A DNA stretch of 26,385 bases from a virus (lineage: Duplodnaviria > Heunggongvirae > Uroviricota > Caudoviricetes): IMG/VR virus record IMGVR_UViG_2909309443_000009. One strand, written 5' to 3'. Both the position numbers and the translations under genes were made by a program. The notes under the pieces are model-generated. The model ran no database searches, was not told where the DNA came from, and worked only from the letters and a program-made list of their open reading frames with translations. Of the stretch, positions 1 through 26,385 are shown piece by piece. Every line of letters starts with the position of its first letter. Positions within the stretch are counted from its first letter, which is position 1.

Positions 1-753
1 TCAGATTCCCTGGTGAGTAAGAATTTTACTTTCTGAACTCCTCTGAGAGTATTGACTTGGAGAAACACCAAAATAACGTCTAAATACATAAGTAAAGTAT
101 GAGACACTGGCATAACCACAGACCTTAGCTACTTTACTAATAGGATAACAACGAGTGCTGAGTAAATATTCAGCCATTTGCATCCTCTCATCAAGTATGA
201 TCTTACTGAATGATACCCCCTCTTCTTTCAATTTCCTCTTTAGTAAACTTTCGCTGAGATATAATCTTGATGATATATCCTTAAGACGCCATGGTGCAGA
301 TAAATCCGTATGAATAATCGTTTTAACTTTAGCCCCTGTGCTTTTCAAACATCCAAACAGAAATACTCCAAATTGTTTTTCAGAAGAAAATGCAGAGAGA
401 CATGTAAAAGCAATAGACTCATCAAAAATTTCTATGTATTCAGCACAGTGATTAGCCCAACTAATTAATCCTTTAATTAAACTGAAGTCAGCAAAGTTTA
501 TTTTTAAATAAGATGGATATTCCCTACAATCAGAAATATCCCTTAAGTTATTAGCTTTCAAATAGCGACTAATAAACTCAGCGCCAAAATCCGCCACTAT
601 CACTCTTTCAGGATATGTCAGGAAAAAATCTCTAGAGCTAGAGTCGACAAGTACAGATGAACCTCTCTCCAGAAACACAATCTCTTTTCCTAAATAAACA
701 TCAAAGGACTCCAAAATCAATATAACTGAACATGTAGTTGCCATATCATCCAC
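1..753 (-). CDS. AraC/XylS-family transcriptional regulator (AT-rich, island-type)
   Basis: 250-aa ORF; C-terminal AraC-type HTH signature (KVAKVCGYASVSYFTYVFRRYFGVSPSQY); stop codon at window positions 1-3; markedly AT-rich codon usage. Confidence 0.7.
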   Translation of the reverse strand: MDDMATTCSVILILESFDVYLGKEIVFLERGSSVLVDSSSRDFFLTYPERVIVADFGAEFISRYLKANNLRDISDCREYPSYLKINFADFSLIKGLISWANHCAEYIEIFDESIAFTCLSAFSSEKQFGVFLFGCLKSTGAKVKTIIHTDLSAPWRLKDISSRLYLSESLLKRKLKEEGVSFSKIILDERMQMAEYLLSTRCYPISKVAKVCGYASVSYFTYVFRRYFGVSPSQYSQRSSESKILTHQGI

Positions 754-1475: not shown

Positions 1476-2345
<870 letters not shown>

Positions 2346-2438
2346 GTCTTTAAGTGATAAGCATAAACCGCAGCACGATCTTGCATACGACGTGCTACGG
2401 TTTCATTTATCTCCGACTGGAAACTTCTTATACAAAGA

Positions 2439-2957
2439 CTATACGCCAACATCATAAATGATCGCCACCTTCTGGCGAGGAACTCCTGATGCAATTAATC
2501 GTCCGGCTTGTGCCCATTGTTCTGGTGTAAGTTTGGGACGACGTCCACCAATTCGTCCCTGTGCGCGAGCAGCTTCCAGTCCAGCTTTTGTTCGTTCAAC
2601 AATCAGTTCTCGTTCCATTTCAGCCAGGGCACCCATCACATGAAAGAAAAAACGCCCCATCGGCGTGCTGGTATCAATAGCATCCGTCAGGCTGCGAAAA
2701 TTAACGCCACGTTCGCGCAACTCCTCAACCAGAATGACCAGATGCCGCATACTACGCCCCAGCCGATCCAGCTTCCAGACAACCAGAGTGTCACCTGCCG
2801 ATAATGTCCTGAGCAGTTTTTTCAGTCCCAGCCTTTCGGACTTTGTACCGCTTATCTTGTCTTCAAAAATCAGCTCGCATCCTGCACAGTTCAGCGCATT
2901 ACGTTGTAGATCTGTGTTCTGGTCATTTGTTGACACACGTACATAGCCAATAAGCAT
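2439..2957 (-). CDS. pin: Pin/Gin/Hin-family serine DNA invertase, inverted second copy, C-terminally truncated (ends ...IIYDVGV)
   Basis: MLIGYVRVSTNDQ... resolvase/invertase catalytic domain; near-identical to 4835-5389 but lacks the last ~12 residues of the HTH; lies in a ~600-bp inverted repeat. Confidence 0.7.
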   Translation of the reverse strand: MLIGYVRVSTNDQNTDLQRNALNCAGCELIFEDKISGTKSERLGLKKLLRTLSAGDTLVVWKLDRLGRSMRHLVILVEELRERGVNFRSLTDAIDTSTPMGRFFFHVMGALAEMERELIVERTKAGLEAARAQGRIGGRRPKLTPEQWAQAGRLIASGVPRQKVAIIYDVGV

Positions 2958-2983
2958 GGTAGATCTCCCTGACAAAAGCAGGA

Positions 2984-3271
2984 ATGATGCCATTTGCTCG
3001 TTATTTCTGCATTTTCATAAATGTTGGTTTGGGAGAAGGTGCTCCAGCTATTGGCGTTCCGTTCTTCTGGCCGTCCGCTGCAATGCCAAATACTGTAATC
3101 GACAGCTGGTCCAGTATGGTGTTTTTGAAGTTCAACGGCGCGAAATTCTCTGCCACTGATTATCCTGTGCTGGCGAAAGTGTTTCCTTCGCTGGTATTAC
3201 CTGAAGCCCGCGGTGATTTCATTCGTATCTGGATGACGGGCGAGGTGCAGACGGTGGTCGCGAATTATTAA
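2984..3271 (+). CDS. Orphan tail-fibre C-terminal variable cassette (Sv-like) reading through the left crossover site
   Basis: ORF begins MMPFARYFCIFINVGLGEG across the crossover site, then a unique C-terminal cassette; no upstream constant tail-fibre region exists. Confidence 0.45.
   Translation: MMPFARYFCIFINVGLGEGAPAIGVPFFWPSAAMPNTVIDSWSSMVFLKFNGAKFSATDYPVLAKVFPSLVLPEARGDFIRIWMTGEVQTVVANY
3012..3037. repeat. pix/gix/hix-like 26-bp invertase crossover site (left)
   Basis: TTTTCATAAATGTTGGTTTGGGAGAA, reverse complement resembles hix/gix consensus TTnTCnAAACC..GGTTT..GAnAA; inverted partner at 4755-4780. Confidence 0.6.
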
Positions 3272-3479
3272 GCTGGCAGGCAGCTACAAACTTTTCTCAG
3301 TTTGCCGGGAATATAGGCGAAGGTGCGGGACACGCAATTAACTTTCATGATGGCATCGCCGGAAATCAGCCAGGATTTTCACGATTTAATTTCACCAGTA
3401 ACTCTGTGGGTGATGGTGTGAATTTTGTTGCTGTCAGACCGCGAAATATTGCATTTAACTTTCTGGTGAGGGCTAAATA

Positions 3480-4073
3480 ATGAAACCTGTTTTTGATGAA
3501 AATGGGCTGGCTACAGTGCCGGGCGATATGCGTTGTTTTTATTATGATGCTGAAACATCTGAGTATACGGGCTGGTCTGATGAATATATTAATACTGGCG
3601 TAAGTATGCCCGCCTGTTCCACTGGTATTGACCCTGGCGAAAACATTCCGGGAAGAGTGGCAGTATTTACAGGTAAGGGATGGCGCCATGAAGAAGACCA
3701 TCGCAATGAGACTGTTTACTTAATCGAAAATGGCGCAGCTGTTACAGTGGATTATATCGGTGCCATCAAAGACGGTTATGTCACGATTTCACCGTTAACG
3801 CCATACGATAAATGGGATGGTGAGAAATGGGTGACAGACACTGAGGCACAACACAGTGCCGCAGTAGACGCGGCAGAAGCACAGCGCCAGTCACTGATTG
3901 ATGCAGCAATGGCTTCCATTAGTCTGATTCAGCTGAAATTACAGGCCGGACGGAAACTGACTCAGGCAGAAACAACCCGACTTAACGCCGTGCTGGATTA
4001 CATTGACGCGGTGACGGCAACAGATACCAGCACCGCGCCGGATATCATCTGGCCTGAACTGCCGGAGGCGTAG
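3480..4073 (+). CDS. Tail fibre assembly protein (Tfa/U-like)
   Basis: 197-aa ORF with RBS GAGGG; Tfa-like N-terminus and C-terminal region; position directly after the tail-fibre cassette inside the invertible segment. Confidence 0.65.
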   Translation: MKPVFDENGLATVPGDMRCFYYDAETSEYTGWSDEYINTGVSMPACSTGIDPGENIPGRVAVFTGKGWRHEEDHRNETVYLIENGAAVTVDYIGAIKDGYVTISPLTPYDKWDGEKWVTDTEAQHSAAVDAAEAQRQSLIDAAMASISLIQLKLQAGRKLTQAETTRLNAVLDYIDAVTATDTSTAPDIIWPELPEA

Positions 4074-4259
4074 GCCATTCAATATCGGGTGCTGTTGACG
4101 TATCAACACGCATCAGCAGCACACGGTATTTCTTCCATTGGGTGAGAGTTGTAGCTTCTTCATCAGTTGCGATATCAGCATCAACAGCATCCTGACGCCA
4201 GGATATTTCACTGTCAGCTTTTTCCCGTAATTGGGATTTTTTAACTTCAGCAATAGCTA

Positions 4260-4472
4260 TTAATTCCTTTTGGTCGGCTGAGGAATATCTATCAGTGCTG
4301 GTTTTCCATTCAGTGTTCCAATCTGTTTTCCTGGTGGAATATCCATAAATAACTTCTTATGTTCTTCCTCACTGACTATTACACCATCATCAGGCCACAG
4401 ACCTGATGCCTCAAATTTTTCTTTCTCCGATATGGGGAAAAAGCCATTTGCTTTAGCGCTCCATACGTACAT
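4260..4472 (-). CDS. Tail fibre assembly protein, alternative copy, truncated (70 aa)
   Basis: Tfa-like N-terminus (MYVWSAKANGFFPI...) on the opposite strand, convergent with 3480-4073; premature stop suggests a decayed gene. Confidence 0.4.
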   Translation of the reverse strand: MYVWSAKANGFFPISEKEKFEASGLWPDDGVIVSEEEHKKLFMDIPPGKQIGTLNGKPALIDIPQPTKRN

Positions 4473-4487
4473 ATCAATACCCCACCG

Positions 4488-4808
4488 CTATAATGTCCAC
4501 ATTAAATCCCCGGGACCTGCCTGCCAGATGCTGGCCCCTGTTAATGATTTTGTTTGATGAACAACCGCCACATTTGCTGGCGATTGTGTTTCAGTTGTTA
4601 CAGTACCGATATCATTCCAGTTAATTGAGATGGAATAGTTCGTTGTTGTAAACGACCGGGGGAAAGTTATGTGTCTTACATTGGTGCCGACAGGAAATCC
4701 AAGATAAACACGCTGAATTATCATTCCTCCAGGTAACATAACCCAGTTAGCACCTTCTCCAAAACCAAGGTTTATGAAAATGCAGAAATAACGAGCAAAT
4801 GGCATCAT
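4488..4808 (-). CDS. Orphan alternative tail-fibre C-terminal cassette (Sv'-like) reading through the right crossover site
   Basis: Begins with the same MMPFARYFCIFIN junction peptide as 2984-3271, then a different C-terminal cassette. Confidence 0.45.
   Translation of the reverse strand: MMPFARYFCIFINLGFGEGANWVMLPGGMIIQRVYLGFPVGTNVRHITFPRSFTTTNYSISINWNDIGTVTTETQSPANVAVVHQTKSLTGASIWQAGPGDLMWTL
4755..4780. repeat. pix/gix/hix-like 26-bp invertase crossover site (right)
   Basis: TTCTCCAAAACCAAGGTTTATGAAAA; compare hixL TTCTTGAAAACCAAGGTTTTTGATAA; ~55 bp upstream of pin. Confidence 0.65.
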
Positions 4809-4834
4809 TCCTGCTTTTACCTGGGGGATCTACC

Positions 4835-5389
4835 ATGCTTATTGGCTATGTTCGCGTATCAACAAATGACCAGAACACCGATCTACAACGTAATGCGTTG
4901 AACTGTGTAGGATGTGAACTGATTTTTGAAGACAAGATAAGCGGTACGAAGTCCGAAAGACCGGGACTGAAAAAACTGCTCAGGACATTATCGGCAGGTG
5001 ACACTCTGGTGGTCTGGAAACTGGATCGGCTGGGGCGTAGTATGCGGCATCTGGTCATTCTGGTTGAGGAGTTGCGCGAACGTGGCGTTAATTTTCGCAG
5101 CCTGACGGATGCTATTGATACCAGCACACCGATGGGGCGTTTTTTCTTTCATGTGATGGGTGCCCTGGCTGAAATGGAACGAGAACTGATTGTTGAACGA
5201 ACAAAAGCTGGACTGGAAGCTGCTCGCGCACAGGGACGAATTGGGGGACGTCGTCCCAAACTTACACCAGAACAATGGGCGCAGGCCGGGCGATTAATTG
5301 CATCAGGCGTTCCTCGCCAGAAGGTGGCGATCATCTATGATGTTGGTATATCGACACTGTATAAGAAGTTTCCGGTCGGAGATAAATGA
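4835..5389 (+). CDS. pin: Pin/Gin/Hin-family serine DNA invertase (full length)
   Basis: 184 aa from MLIGYVRVSTNDQNTDLQRNAL...; complete C-terminal HTH (...VAIIYDVGISTLYKKFPVGDK); RBS GGGGGA upstream. Confidence 0.85.
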   Translation: MLIGYVRVSTNDQNTDLQRNALNCVGCELIFEDKISGTKSERPGLKKLLRTLSAGDTLVVWKLDRLGRSMRHLVILVEELRERGVNFRSLTDAIDTSTPMGRFFFHVMGALAEMERELIVERTKAGLEAARAQGRIGGRRPKLTPEQWAQAGRLIASGVPRQKVAIIYDVGISTLYKKFPVGDK

Positions 5390-5860
5390 AACCGTAGCAT
5401 GTCGTATGCAAGATTGTGCGCGGTTGGCTGGTGAACTTTCGATAGTGCGAGTATTGAATGATTTCCAGCCGTTATCGATTTTATGTATTTTTTGCATGAG
5501 AGGATTTCCATCACCTCCCACCGGCCATCTATGACTTTACGCCACTGTCCCTAGGACTACTATGTACTAGGAGCGGATGTTAAACTCAGACTCGTTTCAG
5601 CTACATTGCGTTTTGAATAATATTCCATCATAATAACTCTTTGAAAAATGTAACCTTTTCATTTATAACACTTATGACTTACTTATCTCATTGGGATATC
5701 GGAGGCGAATACTTAACTATGACAAGCCCGATTATTATGACGCTGGCGATATTATATAGATTGATATTAAAATGTAGGATTAGGTTCTTGCCAAGGTGTC
5801 AAGATTTACAGATAGGTTTAAAACCATATAAATATGTTTTACGGTGAGATGTAATAATTA

Positions 5861-5888
5861 TTGGAAAGCATAAACGCTTGGTAAAAAT
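5861..5888 (+). promoter_or_regulatory. Candidate sigma70 promoter for the large NTPase gene
   Basis: TTGGAA - 16 bp - TAAAAA about 25 bp upstream of the RBS GGGAGAAG; by-eye call only. Confidence 0.25.
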
Positions 5889-5911
5889 TTAATTGTTGGG
5901 AGAAGCTAATC

Positions 5912-8900
5912 ATGGAACCCATATCAATTACAGTGGCAACTTATGTAGCAACTAAACTTATTGATCAATTCATTTCTCAAGAAGGATATAGTTGGATTAA
6001 GAAAGCATTATTCCCCACAGAAAAATATGTGGATAGATTATATCAACTAATTGAAGAGACGGCAATTGAGTTTGAAGAAACATATCCAGTAGAAAGTGGA
6101 GCAATTCCATTTTATCATTCTAAACCATTGTTTGAGATGTTGAATGAGTACATCCTTTTTAAAGAGTTCCCTGACAAAGAGATGTTATTAGACAAGTTCA
6201 AAGAATATCCAAGCGTCACTCCCCCAACTCAACAACAACTCAGCCTTTTTTATGGGATGTTATCATTAAAAATCAATAATTGTTCGAAGTTAAAAAAGCT
6301 ACATATCGAAGAAACGTATAAAGAAAAAATATTCGATATTAATGAAGAGCTCATTCAAGTCAAACTTATTTTACGGTCTATAGATGAGAAACTAACTTTT
6401 CACTTAAGTGATGATTGGTTAAATGAAAAAAATAGTCAAGCAATAGCTGACTTGGGAGGTCGATACACACCCGAACTCAACGTAAAGCTAGAAATAGCAG
6501 AGATATTTGATGGCCTCGGTAGAACTAATGATTTTTCTAAAATATTTTATTCGCATATAGATAGCTTTCTGGTCGCTGGAAAGAAATTACATAGTTGCGA
6601 TGTAATTTCCTCAGAATTATTTGAAATAAACCAGTCCTTAAAAGAAATTTCTGATATATATCAGGAGATTAATTTTTCTAAATTAGATGAAATCCCTATA
6701 AATAAATTTAATAACTATGTTTCTAGCTGCCAGACAGCTATTGGCGGAGCGGTATCAATATTGTGGGAACTCCGAGAAAAGTCAGAGCAAGTAGGTGAAA
6801 CCAAGCATTACAGTGATAAGTATTCATCTACTCTGCGAATGCTTCGGGAATTTGACTATGCGTGCAATGAATTACGTATATTCATTAATTCAACAACAGT
6901 GAAGTTGGCTAACAACCCATTCTTACTTCTCGAAGGAAAAGCAGGAATTGGTAAGTCTCATTTACTGGCTGATGTGATTAAAAATCGAATTGCTTCTGGG
7001 TATCCTTCACTACTCATACTAGGGCAACAACTTACTTCAGATGAATCTCCATGGTCACAAATCTTCAAGAGATTACAGCTTAAAATCACTTCTCGTGAAT
7101 TCCTAGAAAAACTGAATTTATATGGCAAAAAAACAGGAAAAAGAGTCTTAGTTTTTATTGATGCTATTAATGAAGGTAATGGAAATAAATTCTGGAATGA
7201 CAATATTAACAGTTTTGTCGATGAAATCAGATGCTTTGAATGGCTTGGTCTGATAATGTCAGTCAGAACAACATATAGAAATGTAACAATTTCACATGAG
7301 AATGTTGTGCGAAATAATTTTGAAATTCATGAACATATTGGATTCCAGAACGTTGAGTTGGAAGCGGTTAGTCTATTTTATGATTATTACAATATTGAGA
7401 GGCCTTCATCTCCTAACCTTAATCCAGAGTTTAAAAATCCTCTATTTCTTAAGTTATTGTGTGAAGGCATTAAGAAAAATGGTTTAACCAAAGTGCCTGT
7501 TGGATTTAATGGGATTTCAAATATTTTTAACTTTTTAGTTGAAGGGGTAAATAAATCATTAGCATCGCCAAAAAAATATGCATTCGATCCCAGTTTTCCT
7601 CTTGTTAAAGATGCTCTCAATGAAATCATAAAATTCAAATTAGAGATTGGTCGTAATAGTATTTCACTTAAAGATGCTCACTCAGTGGTTCAATCTGTAG
7701 TTAATGATTATGTTGCTGATAAAACCTTCCTCAGCGCCTTGATTGACGAAGGATTATTGACTAAAGGCATAGTGAGAAATGATGATAATTCTACTGAGGA
7801 AGTAGTTTATGTGGCTTTTGAAAGGTTTGATGATCATTTAACTGTTAATTTTTTATTAAATGATGTTGAAAATATCGAAAGTGAATTTAAGCCTGATGGT
7901 CGTCTGAAAAAATATTTTCATGATGAATGTGATTTTTATATAAAATCGGGAATAGTAGAGGCGTTGTCTATTCAATTGCCAGAAAGGTATGAAAAAGAGC
8001 TTTATGAATTTCTGCCGGAGTTCAGCAATAATCTTAAATTACTAGAAGCCTTTATTGATAGCTTGATATGGCGCGATATTAAGGCTATTTATTTCGAAAA
8101 AATTAGACCTTTCATCAATGAACATGTTTTTAAATTTAAAGATAGTTTTGATCATTTCCTCGAGGCAGTGATCTCTATTTCAGGTTTAGTTGGCCATCCC
8201 TTTAATGCTAATTTCTTGCATGATTGGCTAAAAGATTATTCTTTGGCAAATCGAGATTCGTTTTGGACTACAGAACTTAAATATAAATATAGTGAAGACT
8301 CAGCATTTAGGCATCTAATCGATTGGGCATGGGCCAGAACAGATAAAAGCTTTGTTTCGGATGAGTCAATCGAGCTAGTTGCAACTAGTTTATGCTGGTT
8401 TTTAACTTCTAGTAACCGAGAACTTCGAGATTGCTCAACTAAGGCTTTAGTGAGTTTACTCGAGCCAAGAATTCCTGTATTGAGAAAAATAATTGATAAG
8501 TTTTATGGTGTAAATGATCCTTACGTTTGGGAAAGAATATTTGCAGTTGCATTAGGCTGTACATTGCGAACTGATAATATTAAAGAACTAAAATATTTAG
8601 CCGAAACTGTTTACCAAAAGGTATTTTGTTCTAAGTATGTGTATCCAAATATATTACTTAGAGATTATGCTAGAGAGATTATTGAATTTGCTAATCATCT
8701 TGGATTGGAACTTGAAAGCATTGAATTATCCAAGACTAGACCACCCTACAACAGCATTTGGCCTGACAAGATTCCTTCAAAAGAGGAACTAGAGTCCCTT
8801 TATGATAAAGAACCTTATCGGGAACTCTGGAGCTCTATTATGGAAGATGGTGACTTTTCACGATATACTATTGGAACAAATTATAATCATTCTGATTGGT

Positions 8901-10366
8901 CTGGTTGCAAGTTTAATGAAACCCCTGTTGACCGTAAGCAAGTTTTTAAAACTTTCAAATGTAAACTAACTGATCAACAAAAAGACTTGTATGATGCCAC
9001 AGATCCTTTCATTTATGATGATAAATGCGAAGGAATTAAATTTGGTCGTGTGGTCGGTAGAAAAGCACAGGAAGAAATAAAGGCGAGCAAGAAATTATTT
9101 AAGAATTCATTGTCATACGATCTGTTAAGTGAGTTTGAAAATGAAATAGAGCCATACCTGGATCATAATAATAATCTGCTGGAAACTGATAAACACTTTG
9201 ATCTTCGACTAGCTCAACAATTTATATTCAATCGTGTTATAGAGCTTGGTTGGGATCCGGAGAAGCATGGTAATTTTGACCAACAAATAGGAACTGGACG
9301 TGGACGTAGAGAGGCATTCCAAGAACGGATTGGTAAAAAATACCAATGGATTGCTTATTATGAATACATGGCAAGGCTAGCCGATAATTTTACTCGTTTT
9401 GAAGGTTATGGTGACGAACGAAAGGAAAATCCATACCAAGGGCCATGGGAGCCTTACGTAAGAGATATAGATCCCACTATCTTACTTAAAGAAACTGGAA
9501 CGAAAAAAATAAGCAATAAAGAAATGTGGTGGCTTAATGATGAAGTGTTTGATTGGACTTGCTCTAATGAAGACTGGGTTAAAAGTTCTACTACTATAAC
9601 TAATTCATATGCTTTTATTGAAGTTAAAGATGATAATGGTGATGAATGGATAGTATTAGAAAGTCATCCATCATGGAAAGAACCAAAAATTATTGGAAAC
9701 GATGATTGGGGGCACCCACGAAAAGAGGTTTGGTATCAGATCAGAAGTTATATCGTTAAAGTTGAAGAATTTGAAAATTTTAGATGTTGGGCAATAGCTC
9801 AAGACTTTATGGGCAGGTGGATGCCGGAATGTACTGATAGATACCAATTATTTAATAGGGAGTACTATTGGTCCGAAGCATTTAAGTCTTTTAAATCAGA
9901 TTATTATGGTGGATCTGACTGGACTTCGGTAACAGACCGGGAGTCTGGAGCTAAGATAGCTGATGTTAGTGTCACTTCGATTAATTATTTGTGGGAAGAG
10001 GAGTTCGACAAATCAAAAATAGAAACTTTGAATTTTTTGAAGCCTAGTAACTTAATCTTTGAAAAGATGGGATTAAAAAGTGGGGAAGTAGAGGGTAGCT
10101 TCAATGATGAAAATGGAACTATGGTTTGCTTTGCAGCTGAAGCTGTATATGCTTCAAAGCCGCATCTACTTGTTAAAAAAGAACCATTTTTAACAATGTT
10201 AAGGGACAATGGTTTTGAAATCGTTTGGACATTATTAGGTGAAAAGGGCGTTATAGGGGGCTCACTCATATCAAGTCATCATTATGGTCGACAGGAGTTT
10301 AGTGGAGCATTTTATTATGAAGACAGTCAGCTAACAGGAAGTCATAAAACTAGCTTTACGAGATAA
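5912..10366 (+). CDS. Large (1484 aa) STAND/NACHT-like P-loop NTPase with uncharacterised N- and C-terminal modules; candidate antiphage defence protein
   Basis: Uninterrupted ORF with strong RBS; Walker A GKAGIGKS (nt 6935-6958), Walker B VLVFIDAINE (~7145-7177), sensor-1-like LIMSVRT; AT-rich; sits between pin and an att core. Confidence 0.8.
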   Translation: MEPISITVATYVATKLIDQFISQEGYSWIKKALFPTEKYVDRLYQLIEETAIEFEETYPVESGAIPFYHSKPLFEMLNEYILFKEFPDKEMLLDKFKEYPSVTPPTQQQLSLFYGMLSLKINNCSKLKKLHIEETYKEKIFDINEELIQVKLILRSIDEKLTFHLSDDWLNEKNSQAIADLGGRYTPELNVKLEIAEIFDGLGRTNDFSKIFYSHIDSFLVAGKKLHSCDVISSELFEINQSLKEISDIYQEINFSKLDEIPINKFNNYVSSCQTAIGGAVSILWELREKSEQVGETKHYSDKYSSTLRMLREFDYACNELRIFINSTTVKLANNPFLLLEGKAGIGKSHLLADVIKNRIASGYPSLLILGQQLTSDESPWSQIFKRLQLKITSREFLEKLNLYGKKTGKRVLVFIDAINEGNGNKFWNDNINSFVDEIRCFEWLGLIMSVRTTYRNVTISHENVVRNNFEIHEHIGFQNVELEAVSLFYDYYNIERPSSPNLNPEFKNPLFLKLLCEGIKKNGLTKVPVGFNGISNIFNFLVEGVNKSLASPKKYAFDPSFPLVKDALNEIIKFKLEIGRNSISLKDAHSVVQSVVNDYVADKTFLSALIDEGLLTKGIVRNDDNSTEEVVYVAFERFDDHLTVNFLLNDVENIESEFKPDGRLKKYFHDECDFYIKSGIVEALSIQLPERYEKELYEFLPEFSNNLKLLEAFIDSLIWRDIKAIYFEKIRPFINEHVFKFKDSFDHFLEAVISISGLVGHPFNANFLHDWLKDYSLANRDSFWTTELKYKYSEDSAFRHLIDWAWARTDKSFVSDESIELVATSLCWFLTSSNRELRDCSTKALVSLLEPRIPVLRKIIDKFYGVNDPYVWERIFAVALGCTLRTDNIKELKYLAETVYQKVFCSKYVYPNILLRDYAREIIEFANHLGLELESIELSKTRPPYNSIWPDKIPSKEELESLYDKEPYRELWSSIMEDGDFSRYTIGTNYNHSDWSGCKFNETPVDRKQVFKTFKCKLTDQQKDLYDATDPFIYDDKCEGIKFGRVVGRKAQEEIKASKKLFKNSLSYDLLSEFENEIEPYLDHNNNLLETDKHFDLRLAQQFIFNRVIELGWDPEKHGNFDQQIGTGRGRREAFQERIGKKYQWIAYYEYMARLADNFTRFEGYGDERKENPYQGPWEPYVRDIDPTILLKETGTKKISNKEMWWLNDEVFDWTCSNEDWVKSSTTITNSYAFIEVKDDNGDEWIVLESHPSWKEPKIIGNDDWGHPRKEVWYQIRSYIVKVEEFENFRCWAIAQDFMGRWMPECTDRYQLFNREYYWSEAFKSFKSDYYGGSDWTSVTDRESGAKIADVSVTSINYLWEEEFDKSKIETLNFLKPSNLIFEKMGLKSGEVEGSFNDENGTMVCFAAEAVYASKPHLLVKKEPFLTMLRDNGFEIVWTLLGEKGVIGGSLISSHHYGRQEFSGAFYYEDSQLTGSHKTSFTR

Positions 10367-10749
10367 AAATGAATCTCAGAGCTGAATATATAAGTAGTAT
10401 TAGAAACCGGGTTATACTTAAGAAATCAATCTTAAGTGTGGCAGTCGAATGGTAGCTAATATGCTAGCGGCGCTAATGCCTGTTTGTTGCTCATAACAGG
10501 CATTCACTTTAGTTATGGCAGAAAAGTATACATGCTGGGTTGGGAAAGTGTGAAAGAAAGGAAGATTGCTGCGCCGTTTGTCGTCACGTTTATCTTCATT
10601 GGCTATGCAAGTCGTAATAAAAGGTGGGACAAAACTGAGACACATAAAGCCTCGCAATGGCTTGCAAGGCTTTACATGTTTTGATGTGGTGGGACGTGTG
10701 AGCGCAGTGTTGATGGGGTAATGCTTTGAATTAGAAGCGGATTCTTATA

Positions 10750-10795
10750 ATTCGTAATGCGAAGGTCGTAGGTTCGACTCCTATTATCGGCACCA
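10750..10795 (+). other. 3' 46-nt fragment of tRNA-Thr (thrW-like, anticodon CGU): att core, not an intact tRNA
   Basis: ATTCGTAATGCGAAGGTCGTAGGTTCGACTCCTATTATCGGCACCA; upstream sequence is not tRNA-like. Confidence 0.75.
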
Positions 10796-10809
10796 TTTAA
10801 ATCAATAAG

Positions 10810-11587
10810 TTACCTCACATTTAAGTAAACTACGTTCTCCTCTTGTGCCGTATTTGTGCCATTGCGACTTATAATCGCATCGATTTTGCTCGCGTGCTCG
10901 GTGAGATGCCCGGCTGAAAGGTGGGCGTATCTTTGAACCATTTCGAGAGTTTCCCATCCTCCCATCTCTTTAAGTGCAAGAAGAGAGACACCGGACTGAA
11001 CCAGCCAGCTTGCCCAGGTATGCCTCAGATCATGGAAGCGGAAGTTGCTAATGCCTGCCCGCTTTAACGCTCCCTTCCATGCCTTGTTGCTGTCGGTTCT
11101 CATTTTCCTTACCGCTGCTGTTTTTGTTCCGTCGCTTCGGTAGGCAGGTTTGGTGTGGACAAATACCCATCTCTTATGGAGCCCCTGCTGTTTTCTTAAT
11201 ATCTGGCATGCGGTTTCGTTAAGAGGAACTCCAATCGCATTGCCAGCTTTTGTTTCATCAGGGTGCATCCATGCCATTTTCTTATCCAGATCGACCTGTG
11301 ACCACTCAAGGTCTGTAACGTTGGAACGGCGAAGGCCTGTCGTGATTGCAAACATGACCACAGGGAAGAAGTGAGGAGCAATTTCTGCAAACAGGCGCTT
11401 CGATTCCTCCTCTGTAAGCCATCTGATTCGTCCATTCTTAACGCGTGGTGTTGATATTTTGGGCGCCCTGTCAAGCCATCCCCATTCAACAGCCATATTG
11501 AGAATAGCGCGAAGTATTGCCAGATGCCGCGTCTTCGTTCCTTTGCTTGCCAGCTTTGGTTTATACTCCGGCACTGGCTTGCCAAGC
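10810..11587 (-). pseudogene. int: Tyrosine integrase, C-terminal ~255 codons, separated from its upstream part by IS66 insertion
   Basis: Catalytic motifs [13 protein letters not shown] and RYAHL present; aligns to residues ~130-387 of the intact integrase at 22883-24046; reading frame continues through the target duplication into the IS. Confidence 0.75.
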
Positions 11588-11617: not shown

Positions 11618-13189
11618 TTACTGAGAGCTCAGATCAACTTTCCAGGGCAACAGATCGCGTACCCGGTTTGCCGGCCAGTCCTGGATATGTTCAATGACGT
11701 AACGCAGCCACTTTTCTGACTCCACATTGTTCAGACGGCATGTGCCGATCAGCGAGTACAACACCGCCGCATGTTCACCACCGCTGTCGGAACCCGCGAA
11801 CATCCAGTTTTTCCGGCCTACGGCCACTCCCCGTAAGGCGTTCTCTGCGATGTTGTTGTCGATTTCCACCCAGCCATTACTGCAGTACACGTTCAGTGCA
11901 TCCCACTGTTTCAGCAGGTATGCGAACGCTTTTGCCGTATCTGAGTGACGCGACAGTGTTTTCATCTGTTGCTGTATCCAGTCATACAGTGACTGCATCA
12001 GTGGCGCGGCTCTGGCTTTTCTTGCCGCCAGACGCTGTTCTGCTGAACAGCCCCGGACCTCTGCCTCGATGGCATACAGTTCACCGATACGCTGCAGGGC
12101 TTCCGTGGTGATGTAGGTGGGCGCTCTTGCATGCACATCGTGGATTTTTCTCCGGACATGAGCCATACACGCGGCTTCCGTTATTCTGCCGGATTCGTAT
12201 AACGCCCGGTAACCACCGTAAGCATCGGCCTGAAGCACACCGCTGTAACCGGCCAGGTGATTTTGTGGATGGATACCTTTCCGGTCCGGACTGTACGCGA
12301 ACCAGACCGCCGGGGGCATCTGTGAACCGGCGTTACGGTCATCACGGACGTAGACCCACAGCCGGGCTGTCCGGGTTTTACCGCTGCCCGGCTCCTGGAC
12401 CGGGACGGGGATATCATCAGCATGGACTTTACCGGGCATCAGCACATACTGGCGCAGGACGTCATACAGCGGCTCCAGCAGTTCAGCAACAGCACCTGTC
12501 CAGCGCCCCAGTGTGGCACGGCTCAGCTCCACGCCCTGACGACGGTATATTTCTGACTGGCGGTATAACGGCAGATGGTCTGCATATTTCCCGGTGACAA
12601 CATGGGCCAGAAGCCCCGCTCCGGCATAACTGCGTGCAATGGGTTTTGAAGGTACTGGTGCCTGCACGATATGGTCGCACCGGCAACAGGCCTGTTTCGG
12701 ACGTTGTGTTTCGATAACCTTAAAGGCGCTGCTGATAAGCTCCAGTTGCTCTGACACATCACATCCCAGAGAACTGAGTTCACCACCACAGGCAGGACAG
12801 CATTCCTCTTCCGGCCGGATAACCCGGGTTTCACGGGGAAGTGAGGCCGGTAACGGTTTACGGGCTGAAGACTGGCGCAGGGGGGATGGCAGTACCGGGT
12901 CATATTGCTCACCCAGCGTTTCTGCCATTTCTTCCTGAAGTGCGCTGATTCGCTCCTGTGCTTCCTGTATCTGCCGTTCGGTTTTTGCGCGAAGTTTTTC
13001 TGAGCTTTTACCGAACTGCATACGTTGCAGTTTCGCAACCAGCGCCTTCAGCCGGTTGATTTCGGAAGCATAAGCCGCCACCCGCTGTGAGAGCAGGCGG
13101 TTGTATTCAGCCATCTGGCGTATGGTGTCCTGTTGCGTCTGCAACAGTGCCCGCAGGCGGGCGTTCTCATGAGCAAGTGAGGTGTCCAT
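11618..13189 (-). CDS. tnpC: IS66-family transposase TnpC
   Basis: 523-aa ORF with N-terminal coiled-coil/leucine-zipper-like region and Cys-rich segment typical of IS66 TnpC. Confidence 0.8.
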
Positions 13190-13208
13190 ATCCTCACTTT
13201 ACAACGGG

Positions 13209-13556
13209 TTATATGCGGATTCCAGCGCGTTCCGTTCGTTTCGGGTGCTTCCAGTTGATACCTTCAAGAAGCATGGATAACTGAGCCGGAGTAAGGTGCA
13301 CCTTGCCGTCACGGGTGACTGGCCAGACGAAGCGGCCCCGCTCCAGGCGTTTGGTGAAGAGGCACAGTCCGTCACTGTCAGCCCACAACACTTTTATCTG
13401 GTCACCCCGGCGTCCGCGGAAGATGAACAGGTGTCCGGAGAACGGGTCATCCTTCAGGACGTTCTGAACTTTTGATGCCAGGCCGTTAAAGCCATTTCGC
13501 ATATCGGTGATACCTGCAACCAGCCAGATACGCGAACCTGCAGGGAGAGATATCAT
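13209..13556 (-). CDS. tnpB: IS66-family accessory protein TnpB (Orf2)
   Basis: 115-aa ORF MISLPAGSRIWLVAGITDMRNGFNGL... immediately upstream of tnpC. Confidence 0.75.
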   Translation of the reverse strand: MISLPAGSRIWLVAGITDMRNGFNGLASKVQNVLKDDPFSGHLFIFRGRRGDQIKVLWADSDGLCLFTKRLERGRFVWPVTRDGKVHLTPAQLSMLLEGINWKHPKRTERAGIRI

Positions 13557-13680
13557 CAGTGGCTGCTCCCTTTTATTTCGCGGATAAGTGTCTGTAATAA
13601 CGCCGGCGTCAGTTTACCTTTAAGCCTGAGAGTTCCGGCCGGCAGAACCAGCTCACAACACAGACTGTCGGACGGTGTAT

Positions 13681-14232
13681 TTATCTGCTCTGGTTCCTGT
13701 GCGGGGCCGGGATTTTATTATCCGGCTCCGGCGTTAACGTCACGGGAAGCAGTGCCGGCATATTTTTTCCGGAAGGCAGCAGGCCACCTTTCCGGTATTG
13801 ATGGCGCCAGTTGAAGAGCAGGTTATCGTTGATTCCGTTTTCCCGGGCGATCTGCGCCACACAGGCTCCGGGCTGCAGTGACTGCTCCACTAAGGCGATT
13901 TTAAACTCATAAGGGAAGTTGGGCCGCCGGGGACGTTTTTTTACCACGGGGGCTTCGGATATAACGGTGCTTTCAGGACGTACGACTGGTATCGTGGAAA
14001 ATTGTCCGTAAAGGCAGGCATCAAGTTCCTGCTCCGACATGCCTGCGGGCAAAGGCCACGAAAGGCCAGCTCTCCGAAAGCGCACGAACATACTACAAAC
14101 TGTTGATTTTGGTACACCCAGGCGACGCCCGGCCACAACCCGGGGTAAATGTTCTTCAAAGTGAAGACGTAAAGCTTCAGTGATCCAGGTCCGGTGTTTC
14201 ATACGATAGTGTCCATTAAAAATGATGGACAT
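13681..14232 (-). CDS. tnpA: IS66-family accessory protein TnpA (Orf1), HTH-containing; N-terminal extent uncertain
   Basis: C-terminal part RPRRPNFPYEFKIALVEQSLQPGACVAQIARENGINDNLLFNWRHQYR is a transposase-type HTH; 124-bp gap before tnpB is atypical. Confidence 0.55.
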   Translation of the reverse strand: MSIIFNGHYRMKHRTWITEALRLHFEEHLPRVVAGRRLGVPKSTVCSMFVRFRRAGLSWPLPAGMSEQELDACLYGQFSTIPVVRPESTVISEAPVVKKRPRRPNFPYEFKIALVEQSLQPGACVAQIARENGINDNLLFNWRHQYRKGGLLPSGKNMPALLPVTLTPEPDNKIPAPHRNQSR

Positions 14233-22656: not shown

Positions 22657-23006
22657 TGGAGCCATACAGCCTCACACTCGATGAGGCCTGTCATTTTCTC
22701 AAGATATCCAGACCGACTGCCATTAACTGGATACGCACAGGGCGTCTTCAGGCAACACGCAAAGATCCCACTAAGAATAAATCTCCTTACCTCACAACAC
22801 GACAAGCCTGCATTGCGGCTCTTCAGTCTCCGCTGCATACTGTCCAGGTGAGCGCGGGTGATGGCATAACAGAGGAAAGAAAATGTCACTCTTCCGCAGA
22901 GGTGAAATATGGTACGCCAGTTTCACATTGCCGAACGGTAAAAGATTTAAACAGTCTCTTGGAACAAAGGACAAAAGGCAGGCGACAGAACTCCATGACA
23001 AGCTAA
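22656..23006 (+). CDS. xis: Excisionase (AlpA/Xis-type HTH); 3' extent uncertain
   Basis: [36 protein letters not shown] typical of excisionases; RBS GAGGTG; in-frame ORF runs to 23006, overlapping the int start at 22883. Confidence 0.5.
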
Positions 23007-24046
23007 AGGCTGAAGCATGGCGGGTCAGCAAACTTGGTGAAATACCTGATATAACGTTCGAGGAAGCGTGTGTCAGGTGGCTTGAAGAGAAAGCACATAA
23101 AAAATCACTGGACGATGACAAAAGCCGGATCGGATTCTGGCTTCAACATTTCGCAGGAATGCAACTAAGAGACATTACTGAATCAAAAATTTATTCAGCA
23201 ATGCAGAAAATGACGAACCGGCGTCATGAGGAAAACTGGAAACTCAGGGCAGAAGCATGCAGAAAAAAAGGGAAACCTGTTCCAGAATACACGCCAAAAC
23301 CAGCGTCCGTTGCAACGAAGGCTACGCATCTTTCATTTATAAAGGCCCTACTAAGAGCCGCAGAGCGTGAATGGAAAATGCTGGATAAGGCACCAATTAT
23401 TAAAGTGCCTCAACCAAAGAATAAACGGATCCGCTGGCTGGAGCCCCATGAAGCACAAAGGCTGATTGATGAATGTCCGGAGCCATTAAAGTCTGTTGTT
23501 GAATTTGCACTGGCAACAGGCTTAAGACGCTCGAACATCATCAACCTTGAATGGCAACAAATAGATATGCAGCGCCGGGTGGCATGGATAAACCCGGAAG
23601 AGAGTAAATCAAACCGCGCAATCGGCGTTGCGCTGAATGATACTGCATGTCGCGTTTTGAAAAAACAAATCGGGAATCATCACCGTTGGGTATTTGTGTA
23701 CAAGGAAAGCTGTACCAAACCAGACGGAACGAAAGCGCCAACAGTAAGGAAGATGCGGTATGACGCAAACACAGCCTGGAAAGCAGCGCTGAGACGGGCT
23801 GGTATTGATGATTTCAGATTTCACGACTTGAGACACACCTGGGCAAGTTGGCTGGTTCAAGCCGGAGTCCCGTTGTCAGTGTTACAGGAAATGGGAGGCT
23901 GGGAGTCTATCGAAATGGTTCGTCGATATGCTCACCTTGCACCTAATCACCTTACCGAACACGCACGGCAAATAGACTCGATCCTGAACCCATCGGTCCC
24001 AAATTCGTCCCAGTCAAAAAATAAGGAAGGTACTAATGATGTGTAA
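22883..24046 (+). CDS. int: Lambdoid tyrosine integrase (intact)
   Basis: 387 aa; RBS AGGAAAG; catalytic R...HxxR...Y motifs ([24 protein letters not shown]); ends 14 bp before the att core. Confidence 0.9.
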
Positions 24047-24060
24047 CTTATTGATTTAAA

Positions 24061-24109
24061 TGGTGCCGATAATAGGAGTCGAACCTACGACCTTCGCATT
24101 ACGAATGCG
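24061..24109 (-). other. 3' 49-nt fragment of tRNA-Thr (thrW-like) in inverted orientation: second att core
   Basis: TGGTGCCGATAATAGGAGTCGAACCTACGACCTTCGCATTACGAATGCG; the 14-bp spacer to the integrase stop (CTTATTGATTTAAA) is identical to the spacer at 10796-10809. Confidence 0.75.
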
Positions 24110-24197
24110 TAAATTGATCTTGTAAAATCAATACCTATCGAATTTAAATGGATTTTTTGCCACAATATTGCCACAGTTCGTTAGGAATCAGACAGAA

Positions 24198-25271
24198 ATG
24201 GCGACTATACGCAAACGTGGTAACTACCAATGGGAAGCTCAAATCCGTAAACGTGGTTTTCCCTCTCAAACCAAAACCTTTAACACCAAAGTAGAAGCAG
24301 AAGCTTGGGCCAAAATGATCGAGTCAGAAATGGCGAGAGGAGTTTGGCTTAGCCGCAGCGAAGCGGAATCTACGACATTGTATGAAGCCCTAACGCGATA
24401 TGAAAAAGAGATTGTTCCCGACAAAAAAGGGGCAGTGCAAGACCGATCATTGGTGCGGATACTAAAAGGCACTCAGCTGGCGAAAAACTATATGGCCAGC
24501 ATCAGGAGTGCCGATGTCGCCAAGCTGAGAGATGAATGGTTGAAAATCTATGCTCCTGCAACCGTTTTAAGGCGTTTGGCCTTACTTTCTCATGTATTCA
24601 ATGTTTCGCGGAAAGAATGGGGCATGGAGAGCCTGCTGAACCCCGTAGAGGCCATTCGTAAACCCCAACCCAAGAACTCCAGGACCAGACGCCTAGAAGC
24701 GCTGCCTGTAGTTTCTGAGAAAACCGGTGTTACGTCAGGAAAGCAAATAGCCAACGAGATCGAACATATCATCGCCGCAACACATTCATTAGTATTGCCA
24801 GCAATCATTCTTCTGGCGTTAGAGACAGCCATGCGCCGTAGCGAAATCGCAGAGCTTCGATGGCGCTTTATCGATCTTGATCGGCGAGTTGCACATCTGC
24901 CGGATACTAAGAATGGTAATGCCCGCGATGTCCCTTTATCAACGAAAGCCATTACGATACTGTCCAGTCTCAAGGAACATTCTAAGCCAGCTGCTGATAA
25001 GGTTTTTGATATGCGTGCAGACGCGATTACCCGAGCTTTTGACCGAGCTGTAAAACGAGCCAGAGAACGATACGAGAAAACAAACTCATTATGTGATGAA
25101 TCTTTCCTTAAAGATTTAAGATTTCATGACCTTCGACATGAAGCAACTTCTCGACTTGCTGAAATTTTCCCTATGCATGAACTAACCAAAATTACAGGAC
25201 ATAAAGATCCAAGAATGCTAATGCGGTATTATCATCCAAAAGCTGAAGATTTGGCGTTAAAGTTGAAATAA
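24198..25271 (+). CDS. Tyrosine site-specific recombinase / island integrase (second family)
   Basis: MATIRKRGNYQWEAQIRKRGF N-terminus typical of island integrases; catalytic LRFHDLRHEATSRL and MRYYH; ATG 24198 with RBS AGGA. Confidence 0.8.
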   Translation: MATIRKRGNYQWEAQIRKRGFPSQTKTFNTKVEAEAWAKMIESEMARGVWLSRSEAESTTLYEALTRYEKEIVPDKKGAVQDRSLVRILKGTQLAKNYMASIRSADVAKLRDEWLKIYAPATVLRRLALLSHVFNVSRKEWGMESLLNPVEAIRKPQPKNSRTRRLEALPVVSEKTGVTSGKQIANEIEHIIAATHSLVLPAIILLALETAMRRSEIAELRWRFIDLDRRVAHLPDTKNGNARDVPLSTKAITILSSLKEHSKPAADKVFDMRADAITRAFDRAVKRARERYEKTNSLCDESFLKDLRFHDLRHEATSRLAEIFPMHELTKITGHKDPRMLMRYYHPKAEDLALKLK

Positions 25272-25280
25272 GGACGTTGT

Positions 25281-26171: not shown

Positions 26172-26385
26172 CCCTGCTAATTCATTTTCTATAGAAGCAA
26201 GGAAAGAAGCTTTTCGGAGAGCTGAAGCCAGTCTTTTTTTATCAAGTAAAGATCCCAAAGGCTCCTCATTTTTTAATGAAATAAAAACTAAGGTAATCAA
26301 TGGAGAGCTAACCTATGAAGAGGCAAAGAGAGAAGTATTAAATTATCACATTGAACAATCTAAAAATCAAAATAAAAGAGGCTAA
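26158..26385 (+). CDS. Small helical protein resembling VbhA-type antitoxins of Fic-family toxins (tentative)
   Basis: 75 aa; EARKEAFRRAEASLFLS ... INGELTYEEAKREVL pattern; overlaps the upstream gene end; stop codon is the last triplet of the window. Confidence 0.3.
   Translation: MNKNNPANSFSIEARKEAFRRAEASLFLSSKDPKGSSFFNEIKTKVINGELTYEEAKREVLNYHIEQSKNQNKRG

What the first reader, a model, noticed from the sequence alone, without database searches (positions are those of the whole stretch)
5912..10366. Orphan 1484-aa STAND/NACHT-like NTPase with unrecognisable flanking domains: candidate single-gene antiphage system
One uninterrupted ORF with a strong RBS (GGGAGAAG 7 nt before ATG 5912) and a plausible sigma70 promoter. 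Residues 342-349 form a Walker A P-loop (GKAGIGKS), residues 412-421 a NACHT-style Walker B (VLVFIDAINE, i.e. hhhhD-x-x-N-E instead of hhhhDGxDE), followed about 30 residues later by a sensor-1-like LIMSVRT. The NTPase core is sandwiched between an N-terminal ~330-residue module and a ~1000-residue C-terminal module in which I can recognise no nuclease, TIR, HEPN, protease or repeat motif by eye. Tripartite architecture, single-gene organisation, AT-richness against flanking phage DNA and location in a prophage cargo slot all match the logic of Avs/bNACHT-type defence proteins, but the flanking domains do not look like effector or sensor domains I know.
Basis: partly seen in the sequence, partly recalled or inferred. 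Interest (0 to 1): 0.88.

Follow-up and report, generated by a model that had tools for sequence, protein, structure and literature searches.

The report
Known phage-defence gene Avs2 (EcAvs2)
This 1484-residue gene is not an orphan: it is a natural variant (12 amino-acid changes) of E. coli Avs2, an already characterised and structurally solved anti-phage sensor that detects the phage terminase, and only the way its small N-terminal killing domain works is still unknown.

The parts
5398..10812 (+). The mobile avs2 cassette: upstream region, gene and 3' tail, up to the prophage att site.
   Evidence: It is 99.1% identical over 5416 bp to strain H8, where the flanks differ. The upstream boundary falls just after the pin gene, which ends at 5389.
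5898..5905 (+). Shine-Dalgarno-like GGGAGAAG, 6 nt upstream of the ATG.
   Evidence: Read directly from the sequence. The published allele has GGAAGAAG here.
5912..10366 (+). avs2 coding sequence (1484 codons plus stop). The product is identical to WP_001394806.1.
   Evidence: PADLOC Avs2 1755 bits; NCBIfam NF041813 1687 bits against a cut-off of 1000; 100% nucleotide identity to annotated avs2 genes; PDB 9o4e matches residues 1-1484.
5912..6316 (+). N-terminal effector module (residues 1-135). It has a helical core (residues ~39-131) preceded by a flexible MEPIS-motif helix. Its biochemical function is unknown.
5912..5983 (+). MEPIS-motif N-terminal helix (residues 1-24, MEPISITVATYVATKLIDQFISQE).
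   Evidence: The sequence starts with MEPIS and a helix is predicted at residues 7-24. The motif is conserved in homologues. Ibarlosa et al. report that the motif is shared with Bab, Bell and Hell domains and that mutations in this region impair Avast2 defence against T4.
5974..6255 (+). Divergent tract distinguishing the window allele from the published EcAvs2 allele: 16 of the gene's 17 nucleotide differences and 11 of its 12 amino-acid differences.
   Evidence: Clustering P about 1e-18, with 12 nonsynonymous and 4 synonymous codon changes and omega about 0.72. The upstream ~520 bp is also about 4% divergent. Only 18 of 87 genomes carry the window-type 5' end.
6317..6886 (+). Helical extension between effector and ATPase (residues ~136-325). 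The boundaries are approximate and inferred.
   Evidence: The preprint describes a large helical extension between effector and ATPase that contacts the terminase. The NCBIfam Avs2 model starts at residue 178 and the P-loop hits start at residue 325.
6887..7861 (+). STAND NTPase module (residues ~326-650). The C-terminal boundary is approximate and inferred.
   Evidence: Sub-threshold nSTAND6, NB-ARC, NACHT and AAA hits at residues 325-427. The cryo-EM structure resolves NBD, HD1 and WHD subdomains with ATP bound. This is the slowest-evolving part of the protein: dN 0.059 against L014.
6935..6958 (+). Walker A motif GKAGIGKS (residues 342-349; K348).
   Evidence: K348A abolishes defence against Pal009, T7 and PhiV-1 in the published allele.
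7145..7174 (+). Walker B-like motif VLVFIDAINE (residues 412-421; D417).
   Evidence: The preprint states that the Avs2 ATP is coordinated by canonical Walker motifs, but the text I read gives no residue numbers.
7250..7270 (+). Sensor-1-like motif LIMSVRT (residues 447-453; R452). The assignment is inferred.
   Evidence: The motif is present. Its role rests on general knowledge of STAND NTPases and was not tested.
7862..10363 (+). [quoted passage not shown]
   Evidence: Identical to 9o4e apart from Y727 (D in the PDB chain). [quoted passage not shown]
10637..10682 (.). Hairpin in the phage int/att-end region, possibly a bidirectional terminator.
   Evidence: The scan calls it terminator-like on the - strand. 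RNA fold -21.2 kcal/mol, z -1.75. The homologous region of phage SfII is annotated 'terminator | int'.
10750..10813 (+). 64-bp att repeat: about 56 nt of the 3' part of tRNA-Thr (thrW) plus 8 nt of downstream flank. It marks the prophage end next to avs2.
   Evidence: 100% identical to the 3' part of tRNA-Thr in FORC_031, with an inverted second copy at 24043-24106. It matches the attP/int ends of the thrW-integrating phages SfI, SfII, SfIV and SfV.

Best explanation
The ORF is avs2, a natural allele of E. coli Avs2 (EcAvs2, also called AVAST type 2 or 'Avast2'). It is a single-gene abortive-infection sensor carried as the terminal cargo gene of a thrW-integrating prophage. [quoted passage not shown] Binding drives ATP-dependent assembly of a flat C4 tetramer through the STAND NTPase, which brings the four N-termini together. 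Defence needs Walker A K348 and an intact N-terminal MEPIS region. Inferred: clustering of the four N-terminal effector modules (residues ~1-135) frees their flexible MEPIS helices. These then damage the inner membrane or osmotic homeostasis non-enzymatically, giving a plasmolysis-like death as reported for Bab and bNACHT11, and the cell dies before phage progeny are released. My confidence is about 0.97 for the identity and the sensing mechanism, and about 0.5 for the membrane mode of killing. The single confidence value given (0.9) refers to the identity and overall mechanism.
For: Identity: PADLOC Avs2, 1755 bits over residues 22-1483. NCBIfam equivalog Avs2, 1687 bits against a cut-off of 1000, covering the whole model 1-1317. 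100% nucleotide identity to genes annotated avs2 in E. coli, found in 88 of 5426 genomes. PDB 9o4e aligns over residues 1-1484 with 12 differences. The H8 allele WP_063118745.1 has the PDB residue at exactly these 12 positions and is the accession used in the literature for EcAvs2/Avast2. Mechanism: the cryo-EM tetramer with PhiV-1 terminase, the bridging ATP, the K348A and interface mutants, and terminase as the only trigger in whole-phage-genome screens. All named residues are present in the window allele. Effector: the protein starts with MEPIS, Ibarlosa et al. report the motif in Bab, Bell and Hell membrane-targeting domains, and mutations there impair Avast2 defence against T4. bNACHT11 with an MDPIT N-terminus kills by plasmolysis once oligomerised. 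In my models the N-terminal 35 residues are not confidently packed (pLDDT below 50) on a confident helical core, in line with the missing EM density. Conserved positions are mostly hydrophobic or proline. The module is portable and always N-terminal, on Avs2, nSTAND3, NB-ARC-TPR and Agp-like TPR-GreAB-C-PIN proteins. In the Agp-like proteins it sits where Agp carries the amyloid motif that signals to the Bell-type executioner Bab. Circumstantial: Avs2 toxicity screens were run on salt-containing LB, and MEPIS-type killing by bNACHT11 needs salt. Single-gene status: there are no Avap1 or Avap2 partner genes in the flanks.
Confidence: 0.9

Rival explanations
1. The effector is an enzyme or small-molecule-binding domain of a new fold, for example a hydrolase that uses the conserved S70, T50 and E55, and not a membrane-active module.
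For: S70 is invariant, and T50, E55 and Y68 are nearly invariant, within a conserved PFYHSQxLF motif across 33 homologues down to 31% identity. The helical core is confidently folded. There is no transmembrane-grade hydrophobic segment.
Confidence: 0.12
2. The effector does not kill directly. It recruits or templates a separate host or prophage executioner, by amyloid-like or adaptor signalling as in Bab/Agp.
For: Evans et al. describe the first 15 residues as homologous to amyloid signalling proteins and suggest that interaction partners may be missing from the EM sample. The same module is found on Agp-like proteins.
Against: EcAvs2 works as a single gene in laboratory E. coli strains. No partner gene lies in the conserved 5.4-kb cassette. 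According to Ibarlosa et al., the MEPIS motif belongs to the executioner (Bell/Bab) helix 1, not to the amyloid motif.
Confidence: 0.12
3. The window allele is a weakened or inactive variant of EcAvs2, because of the recombinant effector tract.
For: Eleven effector substitutions, including G27S at a position conserved in at least 90% of homologues; omega about 0.72 in the tract; and a changed Shine-Dalgarno and upstream region.
Against: The ORF is intact, and the allele is identical in at least 18 complete genomes and in 4 viral contigs. The MEPIS helix (residues 1-24) is unchanged. The published allele also departs from the family consensus, with F82 where at least 90% of homologues have L. 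All ATPase and sensor residues are intact.
Confidence: 0.1
4. One reading: it is an orphan, previously unrecognised STAND defence protein with novel sensor and effector domains.
For: Pfam finds no domain above threshold.
Against: Full-length family matches, the RefSeq annotation, a solved structure and functional studies all exist.
Confidence: 0.01

Closest known systems
EcAvs2 / AVAST type 2 / 'Avast2' (WP_063118745.1; PDB 9O4E; Evans et al. 2026, bioRxiv 10.64898/2026.04.30.721860)
   Same: Same gene and length (1484 aa), with 1472 of 1484 residues identical. Same ATPase, TPR and C-terminal sensor, including all published contact residues. Same effector type. Same cassette at a thrW prophage end.
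   Different: Twelve substitutions (window residue, position, published residue: S27G, W28C, T36Q, E37K, K38R, K71E, Y80H, L82F, M91I, V102I, G115E, Y727D). Eleven lie in the effector. The upstream region is about 4% divergent, with GGGAG in place of GGAAG in the Shine-Dalgarno. The window allele has not been tested experimentally.
KpAvs2 (Bechon et al. 2024, PMC11564622)
   Same: Avs2-family STAND NTPase and sensor. It senses the large terminase and also Ksap1, and acts by abortive infection.
   Different: KpAvs2 has an Mrr-like nuclease effector that degrades DNA and sits in a three-gene operon with a radical-SAM protein and a DUF6375 protein. The window gene has the MEPIS-type non-nuclease effector and stands alone.
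SeAvs3 (PDB 8DGC)
   Same: A terminase-sensing Avs tetramer. [quoted passage not shown]
   Different: A different TPR domain, an elongated rather than flat tetramer, a Cap4-like nuclease effector, and binding of the folded terminase nuclease domain.
Bab/Agp and Bell, HeLo and Hell domains (Ibarlosa et al. 2024, bioRxiv 10.1101/2024.11.07.622273)
   Same: The N-terminal ~15-residue MEPIS motif, which is needed for defence. Both are small all-helical domains that act in abortive infection. The EcAvs2-type effector is itself fused to Agp-like TPR-GreAB-C-PIN proteins.
   Different: There is no detectable sequence or fold similarity beyond the motif. The effector is fused directly to the receptor instead of being activated through an amyloid motif. 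A membrane phenotype has not been shown for Avs2.
bNACHT11 (bioRxiv 10.1101/2024.12.17.629029)
   Same: A bacterial NLR-like protein with an MDPIT/MEPIS-type N-terminus that is unresolved in cryo-EM and needed for killing after oligomerisation.
   Different: bNACHT11 has only a ~45-residue extension, a NACHT module, a SNaCT sensor and a heptameric assembly. EcAvs2 has a ~135-residue folded effector, is a tetramer and senses terminase.

Membership tests
Avs2 (AVAST type 2) | Full-length match to the curated family profile above its cut-off | tested here: met
   NCBIfam NF041813 (equivalog): 1687 bits against a cut-off of 1000, model positions 1-1317 of 1317. PADLOC Avs2 PDLC02164: 1755 bits over residues 22-1483.
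Avs2 (AVAST type 2) | [quoted passage not shown] | tested here: met
   GKAGIGKS at 342-349 and VLVFIDAINE at 412-421, with sub-threshold STAND and P-loop Pfam hits at the same place. K348A abolishes defence in the published allele.
Avs2 (AVAST type 2) | Avs2-type C-terminal sensor (TPR plus beta-rich C-terminal sensor) with the terminase and bridging-ATP contact residues | tested here: met
   Residues 136-1484 are identical to PDB 9o4e except at residue 727. D981, T1128, R1130, R1132, W1266, E1362, E1364, E1444 and E1462 are all present.
Avs2 (AVAST type 2) | Terminase-triggered oligomerisation and phage defence | not testable with these tools
   Shown for WP_063118745.1. The window allele has not been tested.
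KpAvs2-type three-gene Avs2 operon | Adjacent radical-SAM (Avap1) and DUF6375 (Avap2) genes | tested here: not met
   The flanking ORFs are a Pin resolvase upstream and an att fragment and integrase downstream. No such genes lie in the 5.4-kb cassette.
Bell / HeLo / Hell membrane-targeting cell-death domains | Conserved N-terminal MEPIS-type motif on helix 1 | tested here: met
   The protein starts MEPISITVATYVATK. M-E/D-P-hydrophobic-S/T is conserved in the homologue alignments. Ibarlosa et al. list Avast2 among the motif carriers.
Bell / HeLo / Hell membrane-targeting cell-death domains | Profile match to the HeLo, Helo_like_N or SesA families | tested here: not met
   A Pfam scan of residues 1-180 and 1-330 at E up to 10 gives only a spurious Erf4 hit.
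Bell / HeLo / Hell membrane-targeting cell-death domains | Fold resemblance: a helical bundle cupping hydrophobic helix 1 | tested here: inconclusive
Bell / HeLo / Hell membrane-targeting cell-death domains | Membrane relocalisation or permeabilisation on activation | not testable with these tools
   There is no experimental report for Avs2. The hydropathy of residues 4-22 (1.09) is below transmembrane grade.
NACHT (Pfam PF05729) | Profile match above the gathering threshold | tested here: not met
   13.2 bits against a cut-off of 26.7, covering only the P-loop (residues 338-357). The protein is a STAND NTPase but cannot be assigned to NACHT by this test.

The most novel reading that the evidence does not exclude
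The ~135-residue N-terminal module is a structurally new, non-enzymatic, proximity-activated executioner. It would belong to the MEPIS class functionally but not to the Bell/HeLo fold, and it would be interchangeable with amyloid-signalled Bell domains, since it replaces the BASS11-to-Bab relay on Agp-like TPR-GreAB-C-PIN proteins. Its rapid, mosaic evolution (two E. coli alleles differing by a 5' recombination tract; dN five times that of the ATPase) would then reflect selection acting on the killing step, for example by phage inhibitors.
Probability: 0.3. Interest if true: 0.5.

Novelty: already known. Interest (0 to 1): 0.12.

Why it matters
As a discovery it does not matter much. The gene is a textbook-level defence system with a solved structure, and standard tools (PADLOC, DefenseFinder, PGAP) already call it. 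Two things are still useful. First, the case shows that eyeballing motifs correctly recovers the class of a STAND defence protein but cannot establish novelty, and that Pfam alone would also have missed the family. Second, the only open biology, how the MEPIS-type effector kills, is sharpened here. The module is portable across at least four receptor architectures, including the Agp type that otherwise signals to a Bell-domain executioner. It has no solved structural relative. Nature also provides two effector alleles on an otherwise identical receptor, which is a ready-made pair for testing effector function.

Tried and rejected
- Pfam on the whole protein and on residues 1-180, 1-330 and 471-1484: only sub-threshold P-loop hits and a spurious Erf4 hit.
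- PHROGs: nothing.
- Effector profile against PDB sequences: only 9o4e itself.
- Word-index homologue searches with the effector returned only short proteins. I considered that these might be stand-alone effectors, like Bab, and rejected that: the Chlorobium and Photobacterium cases are Avs2 genes split by an IS element or a frameshift.
- A 40-residue N-terminal query found only two fragments.
- Kyte-Doolittle and hydrophobic-moment analysis gave no transmembrane segment.
- Rfam and ARAGORN found no RNA gene in or beside the locus.
- No copy of avs2 in deposited phage genomes or in PLSDB plasmids.
- Positive selection on the effector was considered, but omega of 0.72 on 16 changes does not show it. 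The pattern is better explained by a recombination tract.
- The preprint's reference list is not held, so I could not confirm its reference 23. I take it to be Ibarlosa et al. 2024.


Full report
**1. The observation**

The window contains one uninterrupted ORF at 5912-10366 on the + strand, encoding 1484 residues. The only ORFs on the opposite strand inside it are 81-94 aa long. The Walker A pattern occurs only once in the protein. GC is 0.32-0.37 across the gene and 0.42-0.58 on either side. GGGAGAAG lies at 5898-5905, 6 nt before the ATG rather than 7. The "plausible sigma70 promoter" is not supported. The consensus scan reports no + strand site between the end of the upstream pin gene (5389) and the ATG, and the number of promoter-like sites in the region (19) is no higher than in shuffles (22 +/- 4.4).

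**2. What it is**

Defence-specific and NCBI profile libraries recognise the whole protein.
- PADLOC Avs2 model PDLC02164 scores 1755 bits over residues 22-1483, and five further Avs2 models also match.
- The NCBIfam equivalog NF041813, "AVAST type 2 anti-phage system protein Avs2", scores 1687 bits against a curated cut-off of 1000 and is covered end to end.
- The nucleotide sequence is 100% identical to genes annotated avs2 in complete E. coli genomes. It is found in 88 of 5426 genomes, one copy each. In strain FORC_031 the product is WP_001394806.1.
- A solved structure exists. PDB 9o4e chain A, 1484 residues, aligns over 1-1484. Reading the alignments residue by residue gives 12 differences, at positions 27, 28, 36, 37, 38, 71, 80, 82, 91, 102, 115 and 727.
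- The avs2 gene of strain H8 (WP_063118745.1) has the PDB residue at exactly these 12 positions. WP_063118745.1 is the accession that papers give for EcAvs2/"Avast2".

The window therefore encodes a natural allele, 99.2% identical, of the experimentally studied EcAvs2.

**3. What is already known about it**

Evans et al. 2026 (bioRxiv 10.64898/2026.04.30.721860) report the following.
- EcAvs2 defends against T7-like PhiV-1, T7, T1-like ZL19 and the Dhillonvirus Pal009.
- K348A abolishes defence.
- In screens of whole phage genomes, the large terminase is the only trigger in PhiV-1 and ZL19. In Pal009, both terminase and Ksap1 trigger it.
- The terminase ATPase domain is sufficient as a trigger.
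- A 2.3 Å cryo-EM structure shows a flat C4 tetramer with four terminases bound.

[quoted passage not shown] A third, "bridging" ATP is held by T1128, R1132, E1364 and D981. All of these residues, plus R1130, W1266, E1362, E1444 and E1462, are present in the window protein.

**4. Context**

The cassette shared between the window and strain H8 is 5398-10812 (99.1% identity). It starts just after the tail-fibre-assembly and Pin invertase module. It ends at a 64-bp att repeat containing the 3' part of tRNA-Thr. The last ~190-320 nt of the cassette match the attP/int ends of the thrW-integrating Shigella phages SfI, SfII, SfIV and SfV. In H8 the gene follows lambdoid gpJ-lom-tail fibre-tfa. Nine IMG/VR viral contigs carry the gene. 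No deposited phage genome and no PLSDB plasmid does. The "prophage cargo slot" idea is therefore supported. The gene stands alone: the radical-SAM and DUF6375 partners of the KpAvs2 operon are absent.

**5. The part that is still open: the effector**

PADLOC Avs2 clades with other effectors, or with none, begin to align at residues 131-164, which delimits an effector of about 135 residues.

Evans et al. call it uncharacterised. It was invisible in the EM map and probably acts non-enzymatically, and they describe its first 15 residues as "homologous to amyloid signaling proteins". Ibarlosa et al. 2024 (bioRxiv 10.1101/2024.11.07.622273) named this N-terminus the "MEPIS motif"; the window protein literally begins MEPIS. 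They report that it is shared by helix 1 of the Bab, Bell and Hell membrane-targeting death domains and by bNACHT02, bNACHT11 and bNACHT23, and that mutations there impair Avast2 defence against T4. The bNACHT11 study (bioRxiv 10.1101/2024.12.17.629029) reports that clustering of MDPIT/MEPIS N-termini causes salt-dependent, plasmolysis-like death.

My own tests gave the following.
- Pfam at E up to 10 gives no HeLo, SesA or Helo_like_N hit.
- There is no transmembrane-grade segment: residues 4-22 have a 19-residue Kyte-Doolittle mean of 1.09.
- Two AlphaFold2 models show a confident helical core (residues ~39-131, pLDDT 80-90). The first 35 residues stay below pLDDT 50 and are not confidently packed.
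- In 33 homologues down to 31% identity, the conserved positions are mostly hydrophobic or proline. S70 is invariant, and T50 and E55 are nearly invariant.
- An exhaustive HMMER search finds 308 cluster representatives, with the domain always at the extreme N-terminus.
- The domain is fused to full Avs2 (P0073), to shorter Avs2-like STANDs (~870 aa), to NB-ARC plus TPR (P0099) and to nSTAND3.
- Among 38 representatives of the ~1200-1300-aa class, 14 carry the TPR-GreAB-C-PIN architecture and 11 carry nSTAND3.

TPR-GreAB-C-PIN is the architecture of Agp, which in the Bab/Agp system carries an N-terminal amyloid motif that activates the Bell-type executioner Bab. In these fusions the EcAvs2-type effector sits where that signalling relay begins. 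This domain-substitution argument supports the view that the effector is itself an executioner.

One circumstantial clue: Avs2 toxicity screens were run on LB with 5 g/L NaCl, while most other Avs families were screened on 0.5 g/L. That fits salt-dependent killing, but the paper does not give a reason for the choice.

**6. Most likely mechanism**

Shown, for the sister allele: terminase binding, ATP-dependent tetramerisation, N-termini brought together, and cell death or abortive infection that needs K348 and the MEPIS region.

Inferred, with confidence of about 0.5: clustering releases the four flexible MEPIS helices from their helical cores, and they damage the inner membrane or osmotic homeostasis without any enzymatic step.

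The rivals are an enzymatic effector of a new fold (0.12), recruitment of a separate executioner (0.12), and an inactive window allele (0.10).

**7. Allele structure**

Sixteen of the 17 nucleotide differences from the published allele lie in nt 63-344 of the gene (binomial P about 1e-18). They comprise 12 nonsynonymous and 4 synonymous codon changes (omega about 0.72). The ~520 bp upstream are also about 4% divergent. Over the whole gene, 78 of 88 genomes are at least 99% identical to the window. Over 5700-6400 only 18 of 87 are. This is a recombination tract covering the promoter region and the effector.

Against a more distant full Avs2 (L014, 80% identical overall), dN is 0.285 for the effector, 0.151 for the helical extension, 0.059 for the ATPase and 0.101 for the sensor. 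Synonymous sites are saturated only in the effector. The effector therefore has its own, deeper history. Positive selection is not demonstrated.

**8. Verdict**

The gene is already known, so interest is low. The remaining interest lies in the effector's mechanism, which the field already recognises as open.

Noticed in passing
window 1521-2345 (+): A 274-aa GIY-YIG (LEM-3-like) protein matches PADLOC PD-T4-3 over its full length (464 bits, E 2.7e-140). It is a second known defence gene, 3.5 kb upstream of avs2, so this stretch is a small defence island.
   Followed up: partly
window 2366-5425: A segment with two Pin/resolvase genes (2439-2993 on the - strand, 4799-5389 on the + strand) and tail-fibre-assembly ORFs is inverted relative to strain FORC_031 (97.5% identity). 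It looks like a remnant of an invertible tail-fibre host-range switch caught in the opposite orientation.
   Followed up: partly
window 10750-10813 (+) and 24043-24106 (-): There are two identical 64-bp att repeats containing the 3' part of tRNA-Thr (thrW), in inverted orientation. Each is next to the 3' end of a tyrosine integrase gene (10810-11574 on the - strand, truncated and followed by an IS66 element at about 11618-14230; 22883-24046 on the + strand). Tandem or rearranged elements at thrW are a likely cause, but the inverted arrangement is not explained.
   Followed up: partly
window 24061-24172 (-): In strains identical to the window (for example E8), RefSeq annotates a 112-nt 'tRNA-Ser' here. 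ARAGORN finds nothing, and Rfam tRNA scores 22.3 bits against a gathering score of 29. The sequence has the authentic tRNA-Thr anticodon and T arms joined to a degenerate 5' part supplied by the neighbouring element. It is probably a chimeric att remnant and a mis-annotation.
   Followed up: yes
window 24168-26385: The right end of the window is the start of a further integrated element that FORC_031 lacks. It has an integrase (24168-25271), an AT-rich 296-aa ORF with no Pfam or PADLOC hit (25281-26171) and a VbhA-family antitoxin. In strain E8, TrbL, TrbJ and TraJ conjugation genes follow, so this is an integrative conjugative element at thrW.
   Followed up: partly
P0066 and 13 other representatives: The EcAvs2-type effector is fused directly to the N-terminus of TPR-GreAB-C-PIN (Agp-like) proteins that have no STAND NTPase. 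It takes the place of the BASS11 amyloid motif that, in Bab/Agp, signals to a separate Bell-domain executioner. This suggests that fused and amyloid-relayed executioners are interchangeable solutions.
   Followed up: partly
L003 7001-12892 (Chlorobium limicola DSM 245); L005 556-5030 (Photobacterium leiognathi): These are homologues with the same effector that have been inactivated. In Chlorobium a DDE transposase splits a 196-aa N-terminal piece from a 1231-aa remainder. In Photobacterium a frameshift gives adjacent 189-aa and 1296-aa ORFs. Many short database 'proteins' matching the effector are fragments of this kind.
   Followed up: yes
window 1-753 (-): An AT-rich (GC 0.33) AraC-family regulator gene lies at the left edge, next to the PD-T4-3 gene. 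Its relation to the defence genes was not examined.
   Followed up: no
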